DNA of 64,000 bases from Alphaproteobacteria bacterium (GTDB lineage: Bacteria; Pseudomonadota; Alphaproteobacteria; Micropepsales; Micropepsaceae): contig JAJPHG010000033.1 in the NCBI GenBank assembly GCA_021325375.1, forward strand, positions 230 to 64,229, read 5' to 3'. The notes beneath the pieces were generated by a model that worked only from the letters and a program-made list of their open reading frames with translations, had not been told where the DNA came from and searched no databases. Position 1 is the stretch's first letter; each line of letters starts with the position of its first letter. The position numbers were made by a program, and so were the translations under genes. Shown here in pieces: positions 7,544 through 20,705 of the stretch.

Positions 7544-7711
7544 GTGTTTCGGTATGTTGGCGCAAACGCCGGAAGCAATTTCGGGGAGGCGGTCTTGAGT
7601 GATCGCCATACGCGAAAATAGCCTAACAGAATCAGCGGATTCGCAACCCTGCCGGGACGCACGGTAGGAATGCGCCATGTACGATATTGGAACGCTGTCC
7701 CTCTGCACGGC

Positions 7712-7753
7712 AAAGGCGCGCGCTGCAGCCTCCTGATGGTGCGCGCCTTTTTT
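7712..7753 (+). terminator. Rho-independent terminator-like hairpin downstream of the tRNA
   Basis: AAAGGCGCGC...GCGCGCCTTT perfect 10-bp stem followed by a T run; long loop. Confidence 0.5.
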
Positions 7754-7802
7754 CAATTCGCGGGTTGTTCCCGGGGCCGGAGCGACCTCAGAGCATCGGA
7801 AC

Positions 7803-8048
7803 CTACCGTCGCTCCGCAGCGTAACCCGTCATCTGCGCGCGCCACCGGCCGAGCGCCACGACTGCCCAGATCCCTTCGACAATTCCGAACGGCCACGCGC
7901 CCTGGAGGAAGCCGTACACCGATCCAAGCGCGCACGCGGCGGCGAAGCCGAGCACGAACCACGGGCTTCTTCGTTCGAACGCGTAGCACAGCAACATCGC
8001 GGTGACCGCGAAGAGGCCAAAGAGAGACAATGCATCCACGTCAGGCAT
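7803..8048 (-). CDS. Small hydrophobic membrane protein (about 80 aa, 3 TM)
   Basis: DALSLFGLFAVTAMLLCYAFERRSPWF...GFLQGAWPFG is a fully hydrophobic, protein-like sequence; start at 8048 (ATG) or 8039 (GTG). Confidence 0.75.
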   Translation of the reverse strand: MPDVDALSLFGLFAVTAMLLCYAFERRSPWFVLGFAAACALGSVYGFLQGAWPFGIVEGIWAVVALGRWRAQMTGYAAERR

Positions 8049-8144
8049 CCGACAGCTTCTGCGGATAACAAAATCATTCCCGAACGCCGTCAACAAGACG
8101 CGCGCAACCATGGGCTCGCGCTCTTCCTTGCGGCTTTTCCGGCC

Positions 8145-8191
8145 ATGGGAGCTTTATGCCCAAGCCATGCATTCCGCATGGATTTTTTACG
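8145..8191 (+). promoter_or_regulatory. Tandem 14-bp motif pair (33-nt period), site 1
   Basis: ATGGGAGCTTTATG (8145) and ATGGATTTTTTACG (8178); the second copy starts 85 nt upstream of ATG 8263. Confidence 0.65.
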
Positions 8192-8262
8192 CCTGTCGAC
8201 CCTATCACTCGTCACCTCGATAGCCGCGGTTCGTCGGCGCCAGCGGGTAGGGACGCAGTGCA

Positions 8263-8517
8263 ATGGCTGAGGTTTTCAGGTTCCAAGACCTATTTGACGA
8301 CCGTCAAGTTAATTCGCGTCGGCCAACACGGGAGCGGGTGACGCATGATGACGAGATGGACGACTACTGGCCTGATGTATCGAGCCGCTACACACTTGAG
8401 TGTCCGCAAACCCTGAAGCGGGTCTCGCTGCGAAGCGTCTTGTTCGAAACGTTTCTGGTATTCGCGGGCTCGGGCGCTCTTGTTCTGGCGGTATGGTTGT
8501 TTGTCCCACAGCCCTAG
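8263..8517 (+). CDS. Small C-terminally anchored membrane protein, paralogue A
   Basis: MAEVFRFQD...YWPDVS...VLFETFLVFAGSGALVL aligns with the ORF at 10108. Confidence 0.75.
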   Translation: MAEVFRFQDLFDDRQVNSRRPTRERVTHDDEMDDYWPDVSSRYTLECPQTLKRVSLRSVLFETFLVFAGSGALVLAVWLFVPQP

Positions 8518-8577
8518 CTTTGCACGGTCCTGCGTTTTTGAATTCAGAGCAGCCAGCGCGTCCACAAGCCGGCACCG

Positions 8578-8624
8578 CATAAGAATTCCATTGGGATGTA
8601 CGATCGAGAAAATAAGGTTTCCTG
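8578..8624 (-). promoter_or_regulatory. Tandem 14-bp motif pair (33-nt period), site 2 (no obvious downstream ORF)
   Basis: Minus strand CAGGAAACCTTATT (8624-8611) and ATGGAATTCTTATG (8591-8578). Confidence 0.6.
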
Positions 8625-8670
8625 CAGGGTCCGCTCTCGTGACCGAAGCAACTTCGTCCGGCGCGCCGCT

Positions 8671-9153
8671 TCAACCTGTCCGCTTGAAGGCGCTGTCGCC
8701 GAACGCCGCGAACAGGGATCGCGGATCGCCGCCCGCACGGAGCTGATCGCGCACGTTGTGATCGCGCAGCGCGCGGGAAGCGGACACGAGGATCTCCAAA
8801 TAGGTTTCGCTCGCCGGCTCAGGACCTAGAAACAGGAGCACGAGGTCGACCTGCCTGCCGTCCAAAGCGTGGTAGTCGATCGGCCGCTGGAGGCGCGAGA
8901 ACAATGCAAACGGCCTGCGAAGCGCCTTGAACCGTATGCACGGCATCGCTACGCCCATTCCCAAACCCGTCGACGCGACGGCCTCTCTGTCGAGAAGCGC
9001 GCGAAGTATTTTCATGTGATCGATATCGACGAACGGCATTGCAAAGGCGGCCAGCTCGACAAGCAGTTGCGGCTTGCTCGTAGCGCACGAATTCACCACG
9101 GCCATGTACGGCGACGTCAAACAGCCGGCCCTTGCTGGCGCCCGAATTCTCAT
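8671..9153 (-). CDS. ptsN: PTS EIIA-Ntr (PtsN) paralogue with Cys at the phospho-His position; start uncertain (9153 ATG or 9120 TTG)
   Basis: ATSKPQLLVELA, LDREAVASTGLGMGVAMPC, RPIDYHALDGRQVDLVLLFLGP and RALRD match PTS_EIIA_2/PtsN. Confidence 0.85.
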   Translation of the reverse strand: MRIRAPARAGCLTSPYMAVVNSCATSKPQLLVELAAFAMPFVDIDHMKILRALLDREAVASTGLGMGVAMPCIRFKALRRPFALFSRLQRPIDYHALDGRQVDLVLLFLGPEPASETYLEILVSASRALRDHNVRDQLRAGGDPRSLFAAFGDSAFKRTG

Positions 9154-9204
9154 GATCGGCTCGCGCGCGGAATCCTCATCCCAAAGTCTGAATAGGCTTT
9201 GCCG

Positions 9205-9251
9205 CATAAAAATTCGATAGGAATCCGAATCGAAAAAAATAAGCGCCCGGG
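9205..9251 (-). promoter_or_regulatory. Tandem 14-bp motif pair (33-nt period), site 3, upstream of ptsN
   Basis: Minus strand CCCGGGCGCTTATT (9251-9238) and ATCGAATTTTTATG (9218-9205). Confidence 0.6.
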
Positions 9252-9275
9252 ATGGTCATGGAGCGCCGCAGATTT

Positions 9276-9322
9276 GCGGCGTCTTTATTTTTGACACGAT
9301 GAACCCGCATGGAATTTTTACG
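9276..9322 (+). promoter_or_regulatory. Tandem 14-bp motif pair (33-nt period), site 4
   Basis: GCGGCGTCTTTATT (9276) and ATGGAATTTTTACG (9309); the second copy starts 76 nt upstream of ATG 9385. Confidence 0.65.
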
Positions 9323-9384
9323 GCCCGTTTGTGTATGCCCCACATCCACGCGGCAATCAGTGTCGCATCACAGGAGAAATCAAA

Positions 9385-9885
9385 ATGTGGAAAAATGCTG
9401 GGGCTGCACTGGTGCTGGCAGCGGGGGTTGCATGCTTGGCGAGTCCGGCGCTCGCGCTGAACGCCTGGGTGAGCAAGATCGACAAGAACGCCGACGGCAG
9501 CGCGACCTATCACTTCACCATTCAGACCGATCCGGGCGAGAGCCTGGCGCCGGGCACCGACTTCGTGACCGTCTACAATCTGGCAGGCCTTGCCGCCGGC
9601 TCGGTGAAGTCGCCGGCCGGATGGAGCGCCTCGTCCGAGGAGTTCGGCAAGACGCCGACGATGAACGGATATCCGATGGTCAATCCGGTGGATATCCCGG
9701 CGCTGAACAACGTCACATGGTCGCCGACCAAGGCGGTCGGCGGCGGCGTGAAGCTGGAAGGTTTCTCGATCACCACCAGCGTGGGCGGGACGACGCAGGG
9801 CGAATACACGGCCTCCGTCACGCGCGGCAAGTCCAAGCAGGCAGTGATCGGCACCATTGAGACACCGGCTTTCTGGCCTCACTGA
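9385..9885 (+). CDS. Secreted beta-rich protein of unknown function
   Basis: AGGAG RBS; signal peptide MWKNAGAALVLAAGVACLASPALA; Gly/Thr/Ser-rich mature part. Confidence 0.8.
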   Translation: MWKNAGAALVLAAGVACLASPALALNAWVSKIDKNADGSATYHFTIQTDPGESLAPGTDFVTVYNLAGLAAGSVKSPAGWSASSEEFGKTPTMNGYPMVNPVDIPALNNVTWSPTKAVGGGVKLEGFSITTSVGGTTQGEYTASVTRGKSKQAVIGTIETPAFWPH

Positions 9886-9915
9886 GGCGGACACGGCCGT
9901 TCACGAATAGGAGAG

Positions 9916-9949
9916 CGCGCGCGACCCAAAGGCGGGTTGCGCGCGTTTT
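9916..9949 (+). terminator. Rho-independent terminator after the secreted-protein gene
   Basis: CGCGCGCGACCC/GGGTTGCGCGCG 12-bp stem (one G:U) followed by TTTT. Confidence 0.65.
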
Positions 9950-9988
9950 CACGTTGCGCGCGGCGACGGGATATTTCCCGCTTTTCCT

Positions 9989-10035
9989 ATGGAATTCTTA
10001 TGCGCGATATCGAAATTCCATATGGAATTCTTATG
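9989..10035 (+). promoter_or_regulatory. Tandem 14-bp motif pair (33-nt period), site 5, two perfect copies; probable promoter of the small ORF-barrel-kdp operon
   Basis: ATGGAATTCTTATG at 9989 and at 10022; a perfect 16-bp palindrome AATTCCATATGGAATT at 10014-10029; 86 nt upstream of ATG 10108. Confidence 0.75.
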
Positions 10036-10107
10036 GCCGTTTTCTCTAGAACCGCCGCGTGGCGAGGGCCGGATCGCAATCCCGGCGGACGCCATTCAGG
10101 TGACGTC

Positions 10108-10374
10108 ATGGCGGAAATTTTCAAGTTCGAAGACGTGGTTGGCGGCCGCAGCGGAGCTCGGCGAAACGGGGCGGCGAGGCGCATCCAGCAGGATGGGAAC
10201 GATTCCTACAGCTTCTGGCCGGAAGTTTCGTGCGGCGCCTGGTCGATAAATCCCGCGCAAGCGGATCCGAGGAATTCTCCGCAGCGCGTCCTGTCGGAAA
10301 TGATGCTGATCGTCGCAGGCGCGGGGTTCTTGGTCCTGCTGGCCACGATATTCCTCGCGGCGCCGTCTTCCTGA
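10108..10374 (+). CDS. Small C-terminally anchored membrane protein, paralogue B
   Basis: MAEIFKFED...FWPEVS...VLSEMMLIVAGAGFLVL aligns with the ORF at 8263. Confidence 0.75.
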   Translation: MAEIFKFEDVVGGRSGARRNGAARRIQQDGNDSYSFWPEVSCGAWSINPAQADPRNSPQRVLSEMMLIVAGAGFLVLLATIFLAAPSS

Positions 10375-10479
10375 ATGCGCGGCGGCTTGCGCGCCGATCG
10401 TTCCAATTCAAGCAGGAAATCACAAGACCCGGATGAAATGTCTCCGGTCAATTGAGCAGTTCGAAAAGAGGGATCCCGA

Positions 10480-12165
10480 ATGAGCATCGTTGGAATCGAG
10501 CGGCAACGCCGTGCCATCAGGTCGGGGCTGAGCGCGGCAGGCATCGGCCTGTGCGTCTCGCTCGCCGCGACAAGCGCGCTCGCGCAGACGCCGGACGCCA
10601 AGCCTGCGCAACCCGGCTGCGATACGTCCGCCGGCGTTCCCGATCCCTACAAGAATTACGCCTGCTACGAACAATATCTGGGCAAGGACGTGTTCGGGCG
10701 CTTCCTCAAATACTACAGCCTCGAGATGGGGCAGGCCTCGGCGCCCAGCGACCCGAACGCGCCGTCCACCCACCGCGACGGCTGGCCGGCGACGCCGCAG
10801 AGCACGCCACCGATGCCGTTCACCGAATGGCCCTATGGCGCGGCGACGTCGCTCGGCGTGAGCACGCCCAACGCCGTCGACAGTCCCCTGATGGTTTCCA
10901 TCGCCGATACCTCGCTCGGCCAGGCGCTGCAGGACGACCATGTGCAGGTCTATGGCTGGGTCAATGGCGGCTTCAATGTGAGCTCGAATTCGCGCCAGCC
11001 CGGCGGCAACGCGCCGATGGCGTATTTCTACACGCCCAACACGGCGGAGCTCGACCAGGTCGTGCTCTATGCGGAGCGCGTGCCGGACACGGTGCAGACC
11101 GATCACATCGATTGGGGCTTCCGCGTCTCGGCATTGTACGGCGAGAACTACCGCTACACGACGGCCTACGGAATCGACAGCTACCAGTTGCTCAAGCACA
11201 ATCTGGTCAACGGCTACGATTTCCCGATGATGTACGCCGAGGTCTATATCCCGCAGGTCGCTGAAGGCCTGCTGATCCGGGTCGGACGCTATATCTCGAT
11301 CCCCGACATCGAGGCCCAGCTCGCGCCGAACAACTACATGTACTCGCACTCGATGATGTACAGCTTCGACAACTACACCAATGAAGGCGTCGTCGCTTCG
11401 CTCGCGATCCGCAAGAACCTCATCCTGCAGCTCGGCATCGTCGACGGCACCGAGACCGCGATCTGGAATTCGGGCGAGAAGCTGAAGAACCTGGATCCCA
11501 ACCCGCTGTTCCCGAACGCGACCTTCGCCAAGGATCCGGGGAACCAGCCTTCGCTCGTCGCCTGCCTGCGCTACACCTGGAACAACGGCGACGACACGAT
11601 CTATCCCTGCGCCGACGGCATCAACAGCGGCACATGGGGCTACAACAATCTGCAATGGTACGGCTTCACCTATTATCACAAGTTCAACGACCAATGGCAC
11701 CTGTCGTTCGAGACCTACGATCTCTTCCAGAAGAACGTCGCGAACGAGAACAATCCGATCGCCGCGGCGGCGGTCGCCAATGGCGGCACGCCGTTCTCGC
11801 CGCAATACATCCCGTTCAACGCGCCGGACGAGGCGCAGTGCGCTCCGCAGCGCTTGACCTGCACGGCGATGGCGACGGGCGCCGTCGCGTATCTGAACTA
11901 CAAGTTCTCGCCGCTGGACAACATCTCGTTCCGTCCCGAGTTCTATGACGACATGCAGGGACAGCGCACCGGTGTCGCGACGAGCTACGCCAATTTCGGC
12001 ATCGGCTGGCAGCATTGGCTTTCGCCGCAGATCGAGTTCCGTCCCGAAGTCGATTTCGACTATTCGCTCGACAGGGACGCCTTCAACGGCGACTCGCTCA
12101 AGGGCATAGCGCCCGACAAGAGATACACGCTGGTCGGAGCCATGGACGTCATCGTCCACTTCTGA
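10480..12165 (+). CDS. Outer-membrane beta-barrel protein (BBP2/DUF1597 porin-like) upstream of kdp
   Basis: Signal peptide; VYGWVNGG, DWGFRVSALYG, VGRYISIPDIE and FRPEFYDD motifs; alternating beta-strand C-terminus ending in Phe (DVIVHF). Confidence 0.8.
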   Translation: MSIVGIERQRRAIRSGLSAAGIGLCVSLAATSALAQTPDAKPAQPGCDTSAGVPDPYKNYACYEQYLGKDVFGRFLKYYSLEMGQASAPSDPNAPSTHRDGWPATPQSTPPMPFTEWPYGAATSLGVSTPNAVDSPLMVSIADTSLGQALQDDHVQVYGWVNGGFNVSSNSRQPGGNAPMAYFYTPNTAELDQVVLYAERVPDTVQTDHIDWGFRVSALYGENYRYTTAYGIDSYQLLKHNLVNGYDFPMMYAEVYIPQVAEGLLIRVGRYISIPDIEAQLAPNNYMYSHSMMYSFDNYTNEGVVASLAIRKNLILQLGIVDGTETAIWNSGEKLKNLDPNPLFPNATFAKDPGNQPSLVACLRYTWNNGDDTIYPCADGINSGTWGYNNLQWYGFTYYHKFNDQWHLSFETYDLFQKNVANENNPIAAAAVANGGTPFSPQYIPFNAPDEAQCAPQRLTCTAMATGAVAYLNYKFSPLDNISFRPEFYDDMQGQRTGVATSYANFGIGWQHWLSPQIEFRPEVDFDYSLDRDAFNGDSLKGIAPDKRYTLVGAMDVIVHF

Positions 12166-12181
12166 CCGAGGAGAACGGCCG

Positions 12182-12265
12182 ATGCTCGACTTCATCCTGA
12201 TCGCCGCGGGGTTCGGCTTCTTCGTCGTCGCGATCGCCTACCAATACGTCTGCGACAGACTTTAG
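12182..12265 (+). CDS. 27-aa hydrophobic peptide preceding kdpF
   Basis: GAGGAG RBS; MLDFILIAAGFGFFVVAIAYQYVCDRL; a single TM helix ending in C-x-R-L. Confidence 0.75.
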   Translation: MLDFILIAAGFGFFVVAIAYQYVCDRL

Positions 12266-12276
12266 AGGAACGACCG

Positions 12277-12366
12277 ATGGTCATCGACTACGTACTTGGA
12301 GCGCTCGTCACCGTGGGCATCCTCTTCTATCTCGTGTTCGCCCTGATCCGCCCCGAGCGGTTTTGA
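12277..12366 (+). CDS. kdpF: K+-transporting ATPase subunit F
   Basis: AGAGGA RBS; MVIDYVLGALVTVGILFYLVFALIRPERF with the diagnostic YL..AL..PERF. Confidence 0.92.
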   Translation: MVIDYVLGALVTVGILFYLVFALIRPERF

Positions 12367-12378
12367 GGAAGGCTGGTC

Positions 12379-14106
12379 ATGACATTCAACGGCTGGATTC
12401 AGATCGCGCTGTATTTCGGGCTGCTGCTCCTGACCGTGAAGCCGCTCGGCCGCTACATGACCGACGTGTTCGAGGGCAAACGCACGTTCTTTTCCTTCCT
12501 CTTGCGCCCGATCGAGCGCGTCATCTACGCGGTCTGCGGCGTGAACGAGACGGAGGAGCAGCACTGGATCGTCTACGGCGTGGCGATGCTGCTCTTCAGC
12601 CTTGCGGGCTTCGTGTCGCTCTATGCGCTGATGCGCCTTCAGGCGACGCTGCCCTACAATCCGCAGCATTTCCCCGCCGTGAGCGAGCATCTTTCGTTCA
12701 ACACGGCGATGAGCTTCATCTCGAACACCAACTGGCAATCCTACGTCCCCGAAACGACGATGAGCTATCTGGTCCAGATGGCCGGGCTCACGGTTCACAA
12801 TTTCCTCTCGGCGGCGACCGGCATCGCGCTCGCCGTCGCGCTCATCCGCGGCTTCGCGCGGCGCTCCGCCCAGACGGTCGGCAATTTCTGGGTCGATCTG
12901 ACGCGCTGCGCGCTCTACATCCTGCTGCCGCTCTCGATCGTGGTCGGCCTGTTCTTCGTCTGGCAGGGGATGCCGCAGAACCTGAGCGCCTATGTGGACG
13001 CCACGACGCTGGAAGGCGGCAAGCAGACCATCGCCTTGGGCCCCGTCGCCTCGCAGGAGGTGATCAAGATGCTGGGCACGAATGGCGGCGGTTTCTTCAA
13101 CGCGAATTCGGCGCATCCGTTCGAGAATCCCAACGCGATCACCAATCTGGTGCAGATCCTGCTGATCTTCTCGCTCGGCGCGGCGCTGACGAACGTCTTC
13201 GGCCGCATGGTCGGCGACCAGCGCCAGGGCTGGGCGATCTTCGCGGTGATGTCGGTGCTGTTCCTGGCCGGAACGACCGTCGTCTACTGGGCGGAGGCGC
13301 CCGGCAATCCGGCCTTCGCCTCCATGCATGTCGACCAGTCGGTCACCGCCTGGCAGCCGGGCGGCAACATGGAAGGCAAGGAGGTGCGCTTCGGCATCGC
13401 CAACTCGGCGCTGTTCTCGACGATCACCACCGATGCGTCCTGCGGCGCCGTCAACACCATGCATGACAGCCTGACGCCCCTCGGCGGCATGATCCCGATG
13501 ATCAACATCCAGCTGGGCGAGATCATCTTCGGCGGCGTCGGCTCCGGCATGTACGGCATGCTGCTCTTCGCGATCGTCGCCGTGTTCGTCGCCGGGCTCA
13601 TGGTCGGGCGGACGCCGGAATATCTGGGCAAGAAGATCGAAGCGCGCGAGGTCAAGATGGCGATGCTGGCCATCCTCATCCTGCCGCTCTCGATCCTGGG
13701 CTTCAGCGCGATTGCGACGGTGCTGCCGGCAGGCCTTGCCGGGCCGGCGAATGCGGGACCGCACGGCTACAGCGAAATCCTCTACGCCTACACCTCGGCC
13801 ACCGGCAACAACGGCAGCGCGTTCGCGGGCATCAGCGCCAACACGATGTTCTACAACGTGACGATCGGTTTTGCGATGCTGATCGGCCGCTTCCTGATGA
13901 TCGTGCCGATGCTGGCGGTCGCGGGCTCCCTCGCCGAGAAGAAGATCCTGGCGCCGTCGGCGGGCACCTTTCCCACCGACGGCGCGCTGTTCGTCGGTCT
14001 CGTCATCGGCGTGATCCTGATCGTCGGCGGTCTCACCTATTTCCCCGCGCTCGCGCTCGGTCCCATCGTCGAGCATTTCGCGATGCTGGCCCACAATCTC
14101 TATTGA
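12379..14106 (+). CDS. kdpA: K+-transporting ATPase subunit A
   Basis: [28 protein letters not shown] and GNNGSAFAG selectivity-filter motifs. Confidence 0.98.
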
Positions 14107-14118
14107 GGTTCGAACATC

Positions 14119-16206
14119 GTGGACACAACCATCCAGAAGCCCGCAGGCGCCGAGAAAGCCCGCAAGCGCACGCAAGCCGCCACGATGACCGATCCGGCCA
14201 TCGTTTTTCCGGCCATCGGCGACGCCTTCAGGAAGCTCGATCCGCGTCACATGGCGGGCAATCCCGTGATGTTCGTGGTGGAGATCGTGGCGACGCTGAC
14301 CACGGTTCTATTCGTTCGCGATCTCGTCATGGGCGGTGTGGGGTTGGGCTTTTCGCTCCAGATCAACATCTGGCTCTGGTTCACGGTGCTCTTTGCCAAC
14401 TTCGCCGAGGCCGTCGCCGAGGGACGCGGCAAGGCGCAGGCGGACTCACTGCGCCAGACCAGAACCGACACGATGGCGAGGCTCCTCGATGACGCGGCCG
14501 GGACGAGCTGGCACTTCGTCGAGGCAACCGCGCTCAAGCAAGGCGACATCGTGCTGGTGGAGGCGGGCGACATCATCCCCAGCGACGGCGAGGTGATCGA
14601 GGGCGTGGCCTCCGTCAACGAGGCCGCGATCACCGGCGAATCCGCGCCGGTCATCCGCGAATCCGGCGGCGACCGCTCGGCGGTGACCGGCGGCACGCAG
14701 GTCATCTCCGATTGGATCAAGGTCAGGATCACCGCGGCGCAAGGCCATACCTTCCTGGACCGCATGATCGCGCTGGTCGAGGGCGCCGAGCGCCAGAAGA
14801 CGCCCAACGAGATCGCGCTCAACATCCTGCTCGCGGGCATGACGATCATCTTCGTCTTTGCCGTGGCTTCGATCCCGAGCTTTGCGGCCTATGCGGGCGG
14901 CCATATCAGCGTGCTGGTGCTGGTCGCGCTGTTCGTGACGCTGATCCCGACCACAATCGGCGCGCTTTTGAGCGCCATCGGCATTGCCGGCATGGACCGG
15001 CTTGTGCGGTTCAACGTGCTTGCGATGTCCGGCCGCGCGGTGGAAGCGGCGGGCGACGTCGACACGCTGCTGCTCGACAAGACCGGCACCATCACGCTGG
15101 GCAACCGCCAGGCGACGGAGTTCGTTGCGCTGCCCGGCGTCGGGGAGCACGACCTCGCCGACGCCGCGCAACTTGCCTCGCTCTCCGACGAGACGCCGGA
15201 AGGCCGCTCCATCGTCGTCCTTGCCAAGGAGAAATACGGCATCCGCGGCCGCGACATGGCGCCGCTCAATGCGCAGTTCATCCCCTTCTCCGCCCAGACC
15301 CGCATCAGCGGCGTCGATATCGAAGGCTCCTCGATCCGCAAAGGCGCGGTGGACGCCGTGCTCGGCTGGTGCGGAGCGGCAGGTACGGACGAGGCGGCGC
15401 GCCTCACGACGCTCTCCGACCGCATCGCAAAGACCGGCGGCACGCCGCTCGCCGTGGCGAAGGACCGCAAGCTGCTCGGCGTCATCCACCTGAAGGACAT
15501 CGTCAAGGGCGGCATCCGCGAGCGGTTCGCGGAATTGCGCAAAATGGGCATCCGCACGGTGATGATCACCGGCGACAACCCGCTGACCGCGGCAGCCATC
15601 GCGGCGGAATCCGGCGTCGACGACTTCCTGGCGCAGGCGACGCCAGAGACCAAGCTCAAGCTCATCCGCGACGAGCAGGCGCTCGGCAAGCTGGTGGCGA
15701 TGTGCGGCGACGGCACCAACGATGCCCCCGCGCTCGCCCAGGCCGACGTCGGCGTCGCGATGAACACCGGGACCATGGCGGCGCGCGAGGCCGGCAACAT
15801 GGTGGACCTCGACAGCGACCCCACCAAGCTCATCGAGATCGTGGAGATCGGCAAGCAGCTCCTGATGACGCGAGGTGCGCTGACGACGTTCTCCATCGCC
15901 AACGATGTCGCAAAATACTTCGCCATCATCCCGGCGATGTTTGTCGCCTTCTACCCCCAGCTCCAGGCCCTGAACGTCATGGGGCTGCGTTCGCCGCAAA
16001 GCGCGATCCTCTCGGCGATCATCTTCAACGCGCTCATCATCATCGCGCTGATCCCGCTCGCCTTGCGGGGCGTGACCTATAAGCCGGTCGGCGCCGCGAG
16101 CATTCTGCGCCGCAATCTTTTGATCTATGGCCTGGGCGGCATCGCGGTCCCGTTCGTCGGCATCAAGCTGGTGGACATGATCGTCAACGCCGTCGGGCTC
16201 GTGTGA
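14119..16206 (+). CDS. kdpB: K+-transporting P-type ATPase subunit B
   Basis: DKTGT phosphorylation site, TGES, TGDN and [10 protein letters not shown] motifs. Confidence 0.98.
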
Positions 16207-16216
16207 GGAAGCGACG

Positions 16217-16792
16217 ATGCTCAAGCAAATCAGGCCCGCCATTTTCATGATCGTCGTCATGACGATCCTCACCGGCCTTGCCTATCCGCTGGGGATGACG
16301 GGCATCGCGCAGTTGCTGTTTCCCCATCAGGCGAACGGCAGCCTGATCGAGAAGAACGGCAAGGTGATCGGCTCCGAGCTCATCGGCCAGTCCTTCGCGA
16401 GCGCCAAGTATTTCCACGGCCGCCCCTCGGCGGCAGGCAACGGCTACGACGCGGCCAACTCTTCCGGCTCCAATCTCGGGCCGACCTCGAAGGCGCTGAT
16501 CAAGCGCGTGAGCGGTGATGCGGCCAAGCTGCACGCGGAGAATCCGAGCCAGCCGGTTCCCGTCGATCTGGTGACCACCTCTGCCAGCGGCCTCGATCCC
16601 GACATCACGCCGGCCGCCGCCTATTTCCAGGTGCCGCGCGTGGCGAAGGCGCGCGGGCTCCCGGAAGGCGCCGTGCGCGGATTGGTGGATGCGCATGTGG
16701 AGGGCCGGGTCCTCGGTGTCATCGGCGAGGCGCATGTGAATGTCCTGAAGCTCAATCTCGCGCTCGACGCCATGCAAGCCGGTCATGGCTGA
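16217..16792 (+). CDS. kdpC: K+-transporting ATPase subunit C
   Basis: [25 protein letters not shown] and [14 protein letters not shown] motifs. Confidence 0.98.
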
Positions 16793-16806
16793 GGCAGTTC
16801 AGCCGA

Positions 16807-19512
16807 ATGGCGATGACCGTTGCTGACGATCGCCCCTCGCCCGAGGCGCTTCTTGCCCAGGCGAAAAAAGAAGGTCGCGGCAAGCTCAAGATATTTCTCG
16901 GCGCCGCGCCCGGCGTCGGCAAGACGTTCGAGATGCTGTCCCAGGCGCGCCAGCGCCGGCTCGAAGGCGTCGATGTCGTCATCGGCGTCGTCGAGACCCA
17001 CGGACGCATCGAAACCGATGCTCTGACGAAGGGCTTCGAGTCCATCCCGAAAAAGCGCTCGCTTTACAAGGGGCGCGTGGTCTCCGAGATGGACCTTGAC
17101 GCCGTTCTTCAGCGCCGGCCGGGACTCGCATTGATCGACGAACTGGCGCACACCAACGCGCAAGGCGCCCGCCATCCCAAGCGTTATCTCGATGTCCAGG
17201 AGATGCTCGCGGCGGGAATCGACGTCTACACGACCGTCAACATCCAGCACATCGAGAGCCTGAACGACGTCGTGGCCCAGATCACGCGCATCCGCGTGCG
17301 CGAAACCGTGCCCGACGAAATCCTGGACGAAGCGGACGAGATCGAGTTGGTCGATACGACCGCCGACGATCTCCTGCAGCGCCTGCGCGAGGGCAAAGTC
17401 TATGTGAAGGCGCAGGCCGAACGCGCTCTGAAGCATTTCTTCTCGCCCGGCAACCTCACCGCCTTGCGCGAGCTCGCGCTGCGCCGGACGGCTCAGCGCG
17501 TCGACCGCGATATGACGGGCTATCTGCGGGCGCATGCGATCGGCGGTCCCTGGCCGGCCGGCGAACGCATCCTGGTGTGCCTAAACGAGCACCCGTCCTG
17601 CGCGGAATTGGTACGCCGGGCTCGAAGGCTGGCCGACAGCTTCAAAGCCACCTGGACCGCGGTCTATGTCGAAGGCTCCAGGCATCTGGCGCTGAGCGAA
17701 ATCGAAAAGGACCGCATTTCCGATACGATGCGCCTGGCGAAACGTCTTGGAGCCGAAGCCGTCACGATCCCGGGACGCGACATCGCGCCGGCCATCCTGG
17801 AATTCGCCCGCAAGAACAACGTCACGCAGATCCTCATCGGAAAGTCCGCGCGCTCGCGCTGGTTCGAGATGCTCCACGGCTCGGTCGTTCGGGACCTCAT
17901 GCGCGAAAGCGGAGCCATAAGCATCATCGCCGTGATGGCGGAGGGCGATGCCGTCGGCCCGAAATCCGTCGCGACCGCGCGCAGGCCCGAAGGCGTGGCA
18001 TGGCGGAACTACGCCTGGAGCGCATTGGCGGTCGCCGTCACGGTGGGCGTGGCCTGGCTGGTCAATGCCGTCATGGCGCACGCGCTTGGCAGCGTGGGGA
18101 TGCTGTTTCTCGTGCCTGTTCTGCTGAGCGCGATCTGGTTCGGCCTCAGACCGGCGCTGCTGACGTCGTTCGTCAGCGTGATGGCTTACAATTTCTTTTT
18201 CCTGCCGCCGCTCTACACGTTCACGATCGCGGACCCCAACAATTGGCTGTCCTTCGCGGTGCTTCTTCTTGTGGCGATCACCGCCGCGAATCTGGCGTCG
18301 CGCGTCCGAGACCAGGCCAATCTGGCGGCCCTGCGCGCCTCGATCGCGGGGCAGCTCTACCAATTCACCGGCAAGCTCGCGGCCATCGCGCGCCTCGACG
18401 ACATTCTTTGGGCTGCGGCCTTCCAGATCGCTTCGATGCTGAAATCCAACGTCGTGATCCTCCTGCCCGACCCCGGTACCAAGCGGCTTGAGATCCGCAG
18501 CGGCTATCCGCCGGAGGACGAGCTCGACGCTCAAGACTTGGCTGCGGCGGCGTGGTGCTGGGAGAAGGGCACCGCAACCGGCCGCAACGCGGAAACGCTC
18601 CCGGGTGCCAAGCGTCTCTTTCTTCCGATGCGGACGGGGCAGGGGCTGGTGGGCGTGATCGGCCTTTTGAGCCAGGACGGGCGGGGGCTGCTTTCGCCCG
18701 ACGAAAGGCGCCTGCTCGATTCGCTTCTCGACCAGACCGCGCTCGCGATCGAGCGCTCGCAACTCGTCGAACGCGTGGACGAGGCCCAGGTCCGTGCGGA
18801 AGCCGACAAGCTGCGCGTCGCGATGCTGAGCTCCCTCTCGCACGACCTGCGCACGCCGCTCGCGACGATCCTCGGCGCATCCACGTCGCTGCTGTCCGGC
18901 GCCGGATTGTATGACGCGCAGCAAACCGCCGACCTGCTTTCGACCGTCCGGGAAGAAGCCGAGCGGATGGACCGTTTCATCGGCAACCTGCTCGACATGT
19001 CGCGCCTCGAAGCGGGCGTGCTCGGCGTCAAGCCGGAGGTCGTCCAGGTGCAGGAATTGGTGGCGTCCGCGATCAAGCGCCTGTTGCGCCGGCTCTCGGA
19101 GCATCGGGTCGACGTGGCGCTGCCCGAGAATCTGCCTTTGGTGTCGGTCGACCCGCTGCTCCTGGAACAGGCGTTGGTCAACCTGCTCGACAACGCCGCG
19201 AAATACGCGCCGTCCTCCTCCGTCATCCGCGTTCGCGGGGCCGCGGAGAAGTCGCGCGTGATCCTCATGATCGAGGACGAGGGATCCGGCATCCCGGCGG
19301 ACGACCTGCCGCACATCTTCGACAAGTTCTATCGCGCCAAGGCCGCCGATCGGAGAATCGCCGGAACGGGTCTTGGCTTGGTCGTGGCCCGCGGCTTCGT
19401 GGAAGCCTTCGGCGGCACGCTCGACGCGGCGAACAGGCCGGGCGGCGCAGGGGCTGTGCTGACGGTTTCCCTGCCAAGGGCGACGGCATTGGGGGGCGGC
19501 GATGGCGACTAG
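16807..19512 (+). CDS. kdpD: Sensor histidine kinase KdpD
   Basis: GKLKIFLGAAPGVGKT, USP domain, 4 TM, GAF, SHDLRTPL H-box, GTGLGL. Confidence 0.98.
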   Translation: MAMTVADDRPSPEALLAQAKKEGRGKLKIFLGAAPGVGKTFEMLSQARQRRLEGVDVVIGVVETHGRIETDALTKGFESIPKKRSLYKGRVVSEMDLDAVLQRRPGLALIDELAHTNAQGARHPKRYLDVQEMLAAGIDVYTTVNIQHIESLNDVVAQITRIRVRETVPDEILDEADEIELVDTTADDLLQRLREGKVYVKAQAERALKHFFSPGNLTALRELALRRTAQRVDRDMTGYLRAHAIGGPWPAGERILVCLNEHPSCAELVRRARRLADSFKATWTAVYVEGSRHLALSEIEKDRISDTMRLAKRLGAEAVTIPGRDIAPAILEFARKNNVTQILIGKSARSRWFEMLHGSVVRDLMRESGAISIIAVMAEGDAVGPKSVATARRPEGVAWRNYAWSALAVAVTVGVAWLVNAVMAHALGSVGMLFLVPVLLSAIWFGLRPALLTSFVSVMAYNFFFLPPLYTFTIADPNNWLSFAVLLLVAITAANLASRVRDQANLAALRASIAGQLYQFTGKLAAIARLDDILWAAAFQIASMLKSNVVILLPDPGTKRLEIRSGYPPEDELDAQDLAAAAWCWEKGTATGRNAETLPGAKRLFLPMRTGQGLVGVIGLLSQDGRGLLSPDERRLLDSLLDQTALAIERSQLVERVDEAQVRAEADKLRVAMLSSLSHDLRTPLATILGASTSLLSGAGLYDAQQTADLLSTVREEAERMDRFIGNLLDMSRLEAGVLGVKPEVVQVQELVASAIKRLLRRLSEHRVDVALPENLPLVSVDPLLLEQALVNLLDNAAKYAPSSSVIRVRGAAEKSRVILMIEDEGSGIPADDLPHIFDKFYRAKAADRRIAGTGLGLVVARGFVEAFGGTLDAANRPGGAGAVLTVSLPRATALGGGDGD

Positions 19513-20194
19513 CCTGCCCAAGATTCTTTTGGTCGATGACGAGCCGCAGATCCGCCGGTTCCTCCATCTCGGCTTGCGCCCCCACGGCTATGACTGCGTA
19601 GAAGCGGGAACCGCGACCGACGCGCTCAGGGTGTTCACGAAGGAACGGCCGGACGTGGTGATCCTCGACCTGGGCCTGCCCGACCGGGACGGTTTCACCG
19701 TGATCCAGCAGATCAGAAGCGCGGGGCTAACCCCGATCGTCGTGTTGTCGGCGCGCAGCGATATCGAAGGCAAGGTCAGGGCGTTGGAACTCGGCGCGGA
19801 TGACTATCTCACCAAGCCCTTCGACATGTCGGAACTCCTCGCCCGCCTGAAGGCGGCGCTGCGCCATGGCTTGCAGACGATCGGTGAAGCTCCGGTATTT
19901 CACACCGGCCGACTGACGGTCGACCTCGTCAAACGGCAAGTCTACCTCGGCGACGCCGAAGTGCGTCTGACGCCGAAGGAGTACAGTCTCCTGCGCTTCC
20001 TGGTCGGCAACGCGGGCAAGGTAGTCACGCATCAGCAATTGCTGAAGGAAGTGTGGGGGCCGGCCCATCTCGAAGACCTGCAGTATCTGCGCGTGCTGAT
20101 GCGGCAATTGCGCCATAAGCTGGAGCCGCAAGGTTCCCCCAATATTCTGGTGACCGAGCCCAGCATAGGTTATCGGCTGTTGCAGCTGCAGTAA
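19502..20194 (+). CDS. kdpE: Response regulator KdpE (OmpR family)
   Basis: Receiver domain (LVDDE, LDLGLPD, KPF) plus winged helix; overlaps the kdpD stop. Confidence 0.95.
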   Translation: MATSLPKILLVDDEPQIRRFLHLGLRPHGYDCVEAGTATDALRVFTKERPDVVILDLGLPDRDGFTVIQQIRSAGLTPIVVLSARSDIEGKVRALELGADDYLTKPFDMSELLARLKAALRHGLQTIGEAPVFHTGRLTVDLVKRQVYLGDAEVRLTPKEYSLLRFLVGNAGKVVTHQQLLKEVWGPAHLEDLQYLRVLMRQLRHKLEPQGSPNILVTEPSIGYRLLQLQ

Positions 20195-20207
20195 GTTCAC
20201 GCATCGA

Positions 20208-20254
20208 TATGGCGGTTTATTTTTCACAACTGAAATTTGAATGGGATTCTTATG
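20208..20254 (+). promoter_or_regulatory. Tandem 14-bp motif pair (33-nt period), site 6
   Basis: TATGGCGGTTTATT (20208) and ATGGGATTCTTATG (20241); the second copy starts 81 nt upstream of ATG 20322. Confidence 0.6.
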
Positions 20255-20321: not shown

Positions 20322-20705
20322 ATGAAGAGCTTCAGAAAACTGCCGGCGATGGTCGTCATCGCGCTGGCGATTGCCGGTTGCGAGACATCGAACGATGCAT
20401 CGGGCGACTACAAGTTCGTGCTTGAGGGCAATCCTGTTTTTGCGAATGGCGGCACGACCATATCGGTCCGCCTCGCCCATGCGGACGGGAGCGCGGTCGC
20501 CGGCGCGGAACTCTACGCCACGCGCTGGGTCAACACCGGTCGGAAGAACACTCCGCGCCGCCTGCAACGCACGGCGATGCACGCAGATGGGCAAGGATCG
20601 TTCACCTACAGCGATGATGATTTGCACGAGGGCGATACGGTTCATCTCGAGGCGAAGCTCATGCCGGAGGGCTCGACGGTCCGCGGATATGTCGAGGTCC
20701 CGTGA
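20322..20705 (+). CDS. Lipoprotein, YtkA/FixH-like Ig fold
   Basis: GAGG RBS; lipobox IAGC; DYKFVL...ISVRL...G.AVAGA.LYATR pattern. Confidence 0.65.
   Translation: MKSFRKLPAMVVIALAIAGCETSNDASGDYKFVLEGNPVFANGGTTISVRLAHADGSAVAGAELYATRWVNTGRKNTPRRLQRTAMHADGQGSFTYSDDDLHEGDTVHLEAKLMPEGSTVRGYVEVP

What the first reader, a model, noticed from the sequence alone, without database searches (positions are those of the whole stretch)
8145..20254. Six-site regulon motif: ATGGAATTYTTAYG preceded by a weaker copy exactly 33 nt upstream
Seen: strong copies at +8178, -8591, -9218, +9309, +10022 and +20241. Each has a second YTTAY-ending 14-mer exactly 33 nt upstream (+8145, -8624, -9251, +9276, +9989, +20208). 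Four lie 76-86 nt before a start codon (8263, 9385, 10108, 20322) and one precedes ptsN. Several are preceded by ATTCC-like bases, giving a palindrome at 10014-10029. Established: OmpR-family regulators bind direct repeats phased in about 11-bp units, and the E. coli KdpE site has TTTATA/TTTACA half-sites. Inference: this is an extended KdpE regulon (33 = 3 x 11) covering five uncharacterised accessory genes; alternatively a dimeric palindrome-binding regulator encoded elsewhere.
Basis: partly seen in the sequence, partly recalled or inferred. Interest (0 to 1): 0.78.

Follow-up and report, generated by a model that had tools for sequence, protein, structure and literature searches.

The report
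KdpE double-box promoters around kdp
A two-part DNA signal repeated six times around the potassium-pump (kdp) genes of this Rhizomicrobium genome is very likely the docking site of the potassium-starvation regulator KdpE; the same layout sits at kdp promoters across many Alphaproteobacteria, and here it also controls several unstudied neighbouring genes.

Summary
ATGGAATTYTTAYG occurs 7 times in the window (0.35 expected). Seven of the nine genome-wide hits with at most one mismatch lie in this 12-kb stretch. All six promoters carry YTTAY exactly 33 nt upstream, and no other offset is shared by two promoters.

The KdpE reading is supported.
- Each box is an 11-bp-phased direct repeat, for example TTCCTATGgaaTTCTTATG. 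This resembles the E. coli KdpE operator TTTATA-N5-TTTACA.
- The same pair (ATGGAATTYWTATR, 19 nt, CTCGAAYYYWTAYG) lies upstream of the kdp operon in 52 of 94 loci searched (54 of 60 pairs at 33 nt). These include S. fredii NGR234, R. etli CFN42 and Azospirillum.
- Box B ends 10 nt before a -10-like hexamer and takes the place of a -35 element, as pho boxes do.
- One box position changes with the KdpE recognition-helix type.
- The window's KdpE keeps R193, R200 and T215.

A seventh site on another contig precedes a second kdpDE pair.

The inferred regulon comprises the kdp operon (small membrane protein, porin, 27-aa peptide, kdpFABCDE), a second small membrane protein, a PtsN paralogue lacking the phospho-histidine, a secreted protein, a lipoprotein, kdpD2E2 and one orphan antisense promoter.

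I rate this a new variant of a known kind. KdpE binding and K+ response remain untested.

The parts
9989..10002 (+). Box A (distal) of the kdp operon promoter, ATGGAATTCTTATG. With the preceding TTCCT it forms the tandem TTCCTATGgaaTTCTTATG.
10022..10035 (+). Box B (proximal) of the kdp operon promoter. It is identical to box A, lies 33 nt downstream of it, and is followed after 10 nt by the -10-like CTAGAA.
8145..8158 (+). Box A of the promoter of small protein sm84 (ATGGGAGCTTTATG).
8178..8191 (+). Box B of the sm84 promoter (ATGGATTTTTTACG), followed after 10 nt by CTATCA.
8611..8624 (-). Box A of the orphan leftward promoter (CAGGAAACCTTATT).
8578..8591 (-). Box B of the orphan leftward promoter (ATGGAATTCTTATG). 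It points antisense into sm84 and towards orf 7803-8111(-). No ATG-started ORF of 20 aa or more follows it.
9238..9251 (-). Box A of the ptsN-like promoter (CCCGGGCGCTTATT).
9205..9218 (-). Box B of the ptsN-like promoter (ATCGAATTTTTATG), followed after 10 nt by TATTCA.
9276..9289 (+). Box A of the promoter of the 166-aa secreted protein (GCGGCGTCTTTATT).
9309..9322 (+). Box B of the promoter of the 166-aa secreted protein (ATGGAATTTTTACG).
20208..20221 (+). Box A of the promoter of the YtkA-like lipoprotein (TATGGCGGTTTATT).
20241..20254 (+). Box B of the promoter of the YtkA-like lipoprotein (ATGGGATTCTTATG).
8263..8517 (+). sm84, an 84-aa protein with a C-terminal membrane helix. It is a paralogue of sm88 and matches no Pfam or NCBIfam family.
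8671..9153 (-). PtsN-like EIIA(Ntr) paralogue (PTS_EIIA_2). The phospho-histidine position reads Cys (AMPC instead of xxPH).
9385..9885 (+). 166-aa protein with a signal-peptide-like N-terminus and no family match. A 60%-identical homologue precedes a porin and a second kdpA in relative L011.
10108..10374 (+). sm88, an 88-aa tail-anchored small membrane protein and the first gene after the kdp promoter.
10480..12165 (+). Outer-membrane beta-barrel porin (Pfam BBP2). It ends 16 nt before the next gene, so it is probably co-transcribed with kdp.
12182..12265 (+). Conserved 27-aa hydrophobic peptide (MLDFILIAAGFGFFVVAIAYQYVCDRL). It is the first gene of the kdp operon in most relatives and matches no NCBIfam family.
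12277..12366 (+). kdpF
12379..16792 (+). kdpA (12379-14106), kdpB (14119-16206) and kdpC (16217-16792).
16807..19512 (+). kdpD sensor kinase (KdpD, Usp, DUF4118, GAF, HisKA and HATPase domains).
19502..20194 (+). kdpE, an OmpR-family response regulator and the proposed binder of the boxes. It aligns over its full length with E. coli KdpE (4KNY, E 5e-57) and keeps the equivalents of R193, R200 and T215.
20322..20705 (+). 127-aa lipoprotein-like protein with a weak YtkA-like match, below the Pfam cut-off.

Best explanation
The motif is the operator of the potassium-starvation regulator KdpE, arranged as a double box.

Each 14-mer, together with about 5 bases before it, holds two half-sites 11 bp apart (consensus TTCYTATG, 3 nt, TTCTTATG). 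This is the head-to-tail layout bound by a dimer of an OmpR/PhoB-type regulator. A promoter has a distal box A and a proximal box B 33 bp apart, which is three helical turns, so both lie on the same face of the DNA.

Box B ends 10 nt before a weak -10-like hexamer, and there is no -35 consensus. If the -10-like hexamer is taken as -12..-7 (inferred), box B lies at about -41 to -23 and box A at about -74 to -56, close to the position of the E. coli KdpE footprint at -72 to -50.

Inferred mechanism: when K+ is scarce, KdpD phosphorylates KdpE. KdpE~P dimers then occupy A and B, and the proximal dimer recruits RNA polymerase as PhoB does at pho boxes.

In this genome the module drives:
1. the kdp operon, extended upstream by a small tail-anchored membrane protein and an outer-membrane porin;
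2. a second small membrane protein;
3. a PtsN paralogue that cannot be phosphorylated on histidine, which may feed back on KdpD;
4. a secreted protein;
5. a lipoprotein;
6. a second kdpDE pair on another contig;
7. one leftward promoter with no evident gene.

Shown here: the sites, their spacing, their restriction to this locus, their conservation at kdp promoters, and the conserved contact residues. Inferred: that KdpE binds both boxes, the position of the transcription start, and induction by low K+.
For: - **Specificity.** There are 7 window matches against 0.35 expected. Seven of 9 genome matches lie in this 12-kb stretch. A matrix built from relatives alone puts the locus sites at the top of the genome ranking. 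Its only other two-box hit, on contig C40, precedes a second kdpD/kdpE pair that is 79% and 77% identical.
- **Spacing.** YTTAY lies at exactly -33 in 6 of 6 window promoters. In 93 kdp loci, same-strand distances between box hits are 33 nt in 38 of 57 pairs, and the rest are 11, 34, 44, 66 or 76 nt. Shuffled loci give no pairs. Of 60 unique pairs found in 52 of 94 loci searched, 54 are at 33 nt, 5 at 34 and 1 at 32.
- **Location.** The pair sits upstream of the 27-aa-peptide/kdpF/kdpA operon in Rhizomicrobium, Stellaceae, Reyranella, Methylocella and others. It is also present in S. fredii NGR234, R. etli CFN42 (box A = TTTATAagattTTTATA), A. lipoferum and A. brasilense. In the window, no gap or box exists between the porin gene and kdpA. 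The 10022 promoter is therefore the only evident promoter of kdpFABCDE.
- **Link to KdpE.** The E. coli half-sites are TTTATA and TTTACA with a 5-bp spacer and invariant TT, and R193, R200 and T215 are essential (PMC3264566). The window's KdpE keeps all three residues. Box column 9 follows the recognition-helix class: YLR-VLM gives T in 14 of 16, YLR-IY[IV] gives A in 24 of 40, and YLR-VYV gives C in 12 of 16 (chi-square p = 2e-8, not corrected for phylogeny). KdpE binds the kdpFABC promoter of S. fredii in a gel shift (PMC9239096). The Caulobacter KdpE ChIP-seq peak at Pkdp gave a motif starting TCGA[AC] (bioRxiv 10.1101/2023.07.05.547876).
- **Promoter geometry.** An AT-rich -10-like hexamer starts 10 nt after box B. 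No sigma-70 consensus promoter is found in 7700-10500.
- **Not a repeat element.** Outside the boxes the six promoters share no homology.
Against:
- E. coli KdpE has a single 23-bp site and a single target (PMC5934670), so a second, proximal KdpE dimer is an inference.
- The upstream half-sites (A1, B1) are weak at the accessory promoters. The first six bases of box B (CTCGAA in most relatives) are conserved regardless of KdpE class, so they might be read by sigma factor rather than by KdpE.
- The helix-to-box covariation could partly reflect shared ancestry.
- The published Caulobacter motif (TCGAMRACGCSMKC) resembles only the start of box B.
- The genome has two KdpE paralogues, and the data cannot say which one acts at which site.
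- The 8591(-) site has no evident gene.
Confidence: 0.78

Rival explanations
1. Only the distal box A is a KdpE site, as in E. coli. Box B is a conserved core-promoter element: CTCGAA or TGGAAT acts as a poor -35 hexamer 18 nt before the -10, and the spacer is AT-rich. RNA polymerase reads it, not KdpE.
For: CTCGAA resembles the alphaproteobacterial -35 consensus CTTGAC (from my own knowledge). It is conserved across KdpE classes. E. coli has one KdpE site. The B1 half-site is poor in many relatives.
Against: In the window's kdp promoter boxes A and B are the same 14-mer. The B2 half-site (TTCTTATG, TTTATATG or TTCCTACG) changes together with A2 in each lineage. At the window's accessory promoters B is the better-conserved box and A is reduced to one half-site, the opposite of what this model predicts.
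Confidence: 0.15
2. The boxes are bound by another direct-repeat-binding regulator, for example a different OmpR-family protein or the KdpE2 paralogue alone. That regulator would co-regulate kdp and its neighbours, and KdpE1 would act elsewhere or not at all.
For: The genome encodes a second KdpE (77% identical) behind its own box pair, and several other OmpR-family regulators at 32-38% identity. No binding data exist.
Against: kdpE is the only regulator gene consistently linked to the boxes across about 90 loci. The half-sites match the KdpE type rather than the PhoB or OmpR type. KdpE1 and KdpE2 have nearly the same recognition helix (YLRVLMRQLR[HQ]KLEP), so both would be expected to read the same box.
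Confidence: 0.05
3. The sites are chance AT-rich matches, or copies of a small mobile repeat or recent promoter duplication, and have no shared regulatory role.
For: Intergenic DNA here is more AT-rich than the genome. One box A overlaps a hairpin followed by a T run (9263-9292).
Against: None of 100 shuffles reaches 7 matches. Seven of 9 genome hits lie in one locus. The six promoters share no homology outside the boxes. The same layout and spacing occur at kdp promoters of distant genera. There is no Rfam family match.
Confidence: 0.02

Closest known systems
E. coli KdpE operator at the kdpFABC promoter (kdpFABCBS; PMC3264566; PDB 4KNY/4KFC)
   Same: - AT-rich 6-bp half-sites TTTA(T/C)A as head-to-tail repeats with an 11-bp period.
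- Location upstream of kdpF.
- Box A lies at about the same distance from the promoter as the E. coli footprint at -72 to -50.
- The regulator is a full-length orthologue with R193, R200 and T215 kept.
   Different: - E. coli has one dimer site and one target (PMC5934670).
- Here there are two dimer-type boxes 33 bp apart, and the proximal one replaces the -35.
- Seven promoters in the genome carry the boxes.
- The half-site consensus here is TTCTTATG rather than TTTTTAYA.
PhoB pho boxes (class II activation by an OmpR/PhoB-family regulator)
   Same: The box is a direct repeat with an 11-bp period. It ends 10 bp upstream of the -10 and substitutes for a -35 element. Several boxes can lie in phase on one promoter (geometry from my own knowledge of pho promoters; box-to--10 distance measured).
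   Different: The half-site sequence differs (TGTCA for PhoB, PMC3264566). pho boxes are usually contiguous at a 22-bp period, whereas here an 11-bp gap separates the two boxes (33-bp period).
Caulobacter crescentus KdpE ChIP-seq regulon (bioRxiv 10.1101/2023.07.05.547876) and the S. fredii KdpE gel shift on PkdpFABC (PMC9239096)
   Same: These are alphaproteobacterial KdpE proteins shown to occupy the kdp promoter. The Caulobacter motif starts TCGA[AC], like CTCGAA of box B. The S. fredii NGR234 kdp promoter carries the full two-box layout.
   Different: Neither study describes a two-box, four-half-site operator or the 33-bp spacing. The Caulobacter motif does not contain the TTAT cores. I could not fetch the Caulobacter sequence.

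Membership tests
KdpE operator (OmpR/PhoB-family direct-repeat site of the Kdp system) | AT-rich 6-bp half-sites of type TTTA(T/C)A with invariant leading TT | tested here: met
   The strong half-sites read YTTAYG or YTTATT in all 12 boxes. R. etli has TTTATA twice. The definition comes from PMC3264566.
KdpE operator (OmpR/PhoB-family direct-repeat site of the Kdp system) | Two half-sites in head-to-tail orientation with an 11-bp period (6 + 5) | tested here: met
   Examples are TTCCTATGgaaTTCTTATG at 9984-10002 and the tandem A boxes of relatives. Column information outside the searched 14-mer peaks 11 nt apart, at -34..-31 and -24..-21. The upstream half-site is weak at the accessory promoters.
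KdpE operator (OmpR/PhoB-family direct-repeat site of the Kdp system) | [quoted passage not shown] | tested here: met
   In the window the 10022 promoter heads sm88-porin-peptide-kdpFABCDE. Box pairs were found in 52 of 94 loci searched, and where checked they lie upstream of the kdp operon.
KdpE operator (OmpR/PhoB-family direct-repeat site of the Kdp system) | Cognate KdpE carries the DNA-contact residues R193, R200 and T215 | tested here: met
   The alignment to 4KNY pairs YLRVLMRQLRHKLE with YLRIYMGHLRQKLE and VTEPS with ITETG. Residue roles are from PMC3264566.
KdpE operator (OmpR/PhoB-family direct-repeat site of the Kdp system) | Phosphorylated KdpE binds the site | not testable with these tools
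   This needs a gel shift, footprint or ChIP. The only indirect support is the helix-to-box covariation and published binding to Pkdp in S. fredii and Caulobacter.
KdpE operator (OmpR/PhoB-family direct-repeat site of the Kdp system) | Downstream genes are induced by K+ limitation in a kdpDE-dependent way | not testable with these tools
Class II (pho-box-like) activator-dependent promoter | Activator box abuts the -10 at about 10 bp and replaces the -35 consensus | tested here: met
   An AT-rich hexamer lies at columns 24-29, which is 10 nt after box B, in 60 box pairs. No sigma-70 consensus promoter is found in 7700-10500. The transcription start is not mapped.
Sigma-54 promoter (GG-N10-GC) | GG and GC dinucleotides separated by exactly 10 nt | tested here: not met
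   In ATGGAATTYTTAYGS the GG and the G(C/G) are 9 nt apart, and the last base is C in only some copies (direct reading).

The most novel reading that the evidence does not exclude
In many Alphaproteobacteria KdpE would work not as the single-site, single-target regulator known from E. coli but as two phased dimers, 33 bp apart, with the proximal one replacing the -35. This plug-in promoter module would have been copied in front of a set of unstudied envelope proteins:
- an outer-membrane porin;
- tail-anchored small membrane proteins;
- a secreted protein and a lipoprotein.

Together with KdpFABC these would form an envelope-spanning K+ scavenging system.

In this Rhizomicrobium the circuit would also be self-reinforcing, through a KdpE-induced PtsN paralogue locked in the non-phosphorylated, KdpD-stimulating state and through a second, autoregulated KdpDE pair.
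Probability: 0.35. Interest if true: 0.65.

Novelty: new variant of a known kind. Interest (0 to 1): 0.52.

Why it matters
[quoted passage not shown] This locus and about 50 related ones suggest a different, conserved operator design in Alphaproteobacteria: four half-sites and two dimers three helical turns apart.

The work also gives a concrete, testable list of genes that share the operator. Several have no known family: the small tail-anchored membrane proteins, the 166-aa secreted protein and the 27-aa peptide ahead of kdpF. The list also includes an outer-membrane porin, which hints at how K+ crosses the outer membrane during starvation.

The same layout is present in tractable strains (R. 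etli CFN42, S. fredii NGR234, Azospirillum brasilense), so the model can be tested directly.

Finally, the apparent co-change of one operator base with three recognition-helix residues offers a simple system for studying how OmpR-family specificity evolves.

Tried and rejected
- **Sigma-54 promoter.** The GG-to-GC spacing is 9 nt, not 10 (direct reading), so I rejected this.
- **Palindrome operator.** Only 10014-10029 is palindromic. Relatives carry CTCG in place of ATGG, which destroys the symmetry.
- **Mobile repeat or recent duplication.** The alignment of the six promoters shows identity only in the boxes.
- **RNA element in the 5' leaders.** Rfam gives one sub-threshold hit to a microRNA-precursor family inside a coding region.
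- **Internal promoter or terminator between sm88 and the porin gene.** There is no box, no T run, and the fold is no better than shuffles (z = 0.61).
- **Further regulon members elsewhere in the genome.** Only the C40 site has a box pair. The next best single boxes (C34:157614, C7:189722) lack a box A and lie in or before unrelated genes.
- **Class-neutral regular expression for boxes.** It was too strict to be useful. I replaced it with a matrix in which columns 8-9 were zeroed.
- **Caulobacter kdp promoter.** The control genomes of the genome search give no loci, so I could not compare the ChIP-seq motif with the sequence.
- **Literature on kdp-linked porins.** I found nothing relevant.
- **E. 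coli promoter.** GCGAAATCTTTGC, 31 nt after S2, resembles box B. However, the offset differs by 2 nt and the published footprint does not cover it, so I kept it only as a lead.

Full report
**What is there**

The window comes from a Rhizomicrobium-like alphaproteobacterium. The genome is 4.77 Mb, 65% GC, in 45 contigs, and the nearest KdpA relatives are named Rhizomicrobium sp..

The region 8.1-20.7 kb holds these genes:
- sm84, a small membrane protein (8263-8517);
- a PtsN-like EIIA gene on the minus strand (8671-9153);
- a 166-aa secreted protein (9385-9885);
- a run without usable gaps: small membrane protein sm88 (10108-10374), a BBP2-type porin (10480-12165), a 27-aa peptide (12182), then kdpF, kdpA, kdpB, kdpC, kdpD and kdpE (ending 20194);
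- a YtkA-like lipoprotein (20322-20705).

**Check of the observation**

ATGGAATTYTTAYG with up to 2 mismatches occurs 7 times in the window, against 0.35 expected, and no shuffle reaches 7. The sites are at the stated coordinates, and 9989 is a seventh, perfect copy.

In the whole genome there are 9 hits at up to 1 mismatch, and 7 are these sites. A matrix built only from boxes of other genomes ranks the locus sites as the top 5 hits and 7 of the top 10 genome-wide.

All six promoters have YTTAY exactly 33 nt upstream of the YTTAY of the strong copy. No other offset from 5 to 69 nt is shared by two promoters, and the local YTTAY density is 0.0022 per position.

An alignment of the six promoters shows identity only in the two boxes, so they are not recent duplicates or a mobile repeat.

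**Anatomy**

Read with its 5' flank, each 14-mer is a head-to-tail repeat with an 11-bp period. The clearest case is 9984-10002, TTCCTATGgaaTTCTTATG. A promoter therefore has four half-site positions, at 0, 11, 33 and 44.

The downstream half-site of each box is strong. The upstream one is weak at the accessory promoters.

Box B is followed after 10 nt by an AT-rich -10-like hexamer: CTAGAA, CTATCA, GTATGC, TATTCA. A sigma-70 consensus scan finds no promoter in 7700-10500.

Taking that hexamer as -12..-7 (inferred), box B spans about -41..-23 and box A about -74..-56.

**Relatives**

I fetched kdpA loci from 12 genus relatives, from 80 species representatives with 73-88% KdpA identity, and from 4 cultured strains.

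Upstream of the conserved 27-aa-peptide/kdpF/kdpA operon, most carry the same pair: ATGGAATTYWTATR, 19 nt, CTCGAAYYYWTAYG.

Among matrix hits in 93 loci, same-strand distances are 33 nt in 38 of 57 pairs. The others are 11, 34, 44, 66 or 76 nt, and shuffled loci give no pair at all.

Sixty unique pairs occur in 52 of 94 loci searched: 54 at 33 nt, 5 at 34 and 1 at 32. Column information outside the searched 14-mer recovers the two distal half-sites 11 nt apart.

The layout is present in S. fredii NGR234 (TTCCTATAgaaATCCTATT, 19 nt, CTCGAACCTTTATG, 10 nt, CCATAT), in R. etli CFN42 (TTTATAagattTTTATA, then CTCGAACCTTTATG) and in two Azospirillum species.

Many relatives also have extra copies in front of neighbouring genes. 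The recurrent ones are small tail-anchored membrane proteins (12 loci in one cluster) and porins.

**Link to KdpE**

The E. coli operator is TTTATA-N5-TTTACA with a footprint at -72 to -50, and R193, R200 and T215 are required (PMC3264566; sequence read). The window's KdpE aligns over its full length with E. coli KdpE (E 5e-57) and keeps all three residues.

Across loci, the three residues after YLR in the recognition helix go with the base at box column 9. VLM goes with T (14 of 16), IY[IV] with A (24 of 40) and VYV with C (12 of 16). The chi-square p value is 2e-8. The detector ignored columns 8-9, and the test is not corrected for phylogeny. Boxes A and B change together within each lineage.

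Published work shows KdpE on the kdp promoter in S. fredii by gel shift (PMC9239096) and in Caulobacter by ChIP-seq, with a motif beginning TCGA[AC]. Neither study describes the two-box layout.

In the genus, genomes without kdpA have 3 motif hits in 10 genomes, and genomes with kdpA have 25 in 14. Genome size confounds this comparison.

**Seventh site**

Contig C40 carries a box pair (A at 32 nt) followed by four elements:
- an ORF whose first ten residues (MADILKFQSL) resemble sm84 and sm88;
- a DUF433/DUF5615 gene pair;
- kdpD2, 79% identical to kdpD;
- kdpE2, 77% identical to kdpE.

**Mechanism proposed**

KdpE~P dimers bind A and B on one face of the helix. The proximal dimer stands in for the -35, as at pho boxes. 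I put 0.78 on KdpE being the binder and the boxes being K+-starvation promoters. I am somewhat less sure that both boxes are KdpE-bound, and the main rival is that box B is a core-promoter element (0.15).

**Comparison and novelty**

The E. coli paradigm is one site and one target (PMC5934670). Here the operator is doubled, overlaps the -35, is conserved across many alphaproteobacterial families, and serves seven promoters in one genome.

This is a new variant of a known kind. The literature searched does not describe it. Earlier notes of this scan report similar multi-half-site KdpE operators in other phyla. I did not test those notes and do not count them as evidence.

**Limits**

- The Caulobacter sequence could not be fetched.
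- The target of the 8591(-) promoter is unknown.

Noticed in passing
own genome contig C40:126492-130700 (minus strand), outside the window: A second kdpD/kdpE pair (79% and 77% identical) with no kdpABC next to it lies behind the same box pair. Between the boxes and kdpD2 sit an ORF starting MADILKFQSL, which resembles the N-terminus of sm84/sm88, and a DUF433 + DUF5615 (PIN-like) gene pair. The pair looks like a toxin-antitoxin module inserted into a former small-protein gene.
   Followed up: partly
window 12182-12265: A 27-aa hydrophobic peptide (MLDxxFxxxGxxFFxxAxxYxxxCDRL) precedes kdpF. In at least 19 loci, and in S. fredii, R. etli and Azospirillum, it is the first gene after the KdpE boxes. 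It matches no NCBIfam family, and A. lipoferum annotates an ORF (AZOLI_RS33665) at the corresponding position as 'hypothetical protein'. It may be an unrecognised Kdp subunit or a leader peptide.
   Followed up: partly
window 8671-9153 (-): The kdp-linked PtsN paralogue reads AMPC where PtsN has the phospho-histidine (xxPH). Fifteen kdp-linked PtsN paralogues in other genera, and this genome's own second ptsN on contig C3, keep the His. One Rhizomicrobium relative (L037) has Tyr. Unphosphorylated PtsN is the form that binds KdpD in S. fredii (PMC9239096), so this could be a KdpE-induced, permanently 'on' stimulator of KdpD.
   Followed up: partly
window 8554-8111 (-): The box pair at 8624/8591(-) has no ATG-started ORF of 20 aa or more downstream. 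Transcripts would run antisense through sm84 and its promoter, towards a 102-aa membrane protein gene (7803-8111, -) that has homologues near kdp in L011 and L084. It could produce an antisense RNA or a long leader.
   Followed up: partly
L001, L003, L011, L022 and others, between boxes A and B: A subgroup of relatives has a conserved palindrome-like TGCGSCGCA directly after box A (for example TTATATTGATGCGGCGCA). This might be a second factor's site inside the 19-nt gap. The window has no clear counterpart in its A-B gaps; a partial TGCGGCG lies just upstream of box A at 9276.
   Followed up: no
L093 (E. coli MG1655 kdpF upstream), about 25-37 nt after half-site S2: GCGAAATCTTTGC resembles box B (CTCGAATTCTTATG) at 9 of 12 positions but lies 31 rather than 33 nt after S2. 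The published footprint does not include it.
   Followed up: no
relatives L017, L032, L033, L040, L048, L050, L062, L065, L075, L084, L087, L007, L011: Small proteins (52-88 aa) with a shared C-terminal membrane helix motif ((V/L)LxEIGxxLAxHLA) are the first gene after a KdpE box pair in many genera. One of them (L017) shares the WPD and VLFE motifs with sm84 and sm88 of the window, but blastp did not cluster the window's proteins with this group.
   Followed up: partly
window 9263-9292 (+): A GC-rich hairpin followed by a T run (GCGCCGCAGATTTGCGGCGT CTTTATTTTT) overlaps box A of the 9309 promoter. The count of terminator-like sites in the region is not above the shuffled controls.
   Followed up: no
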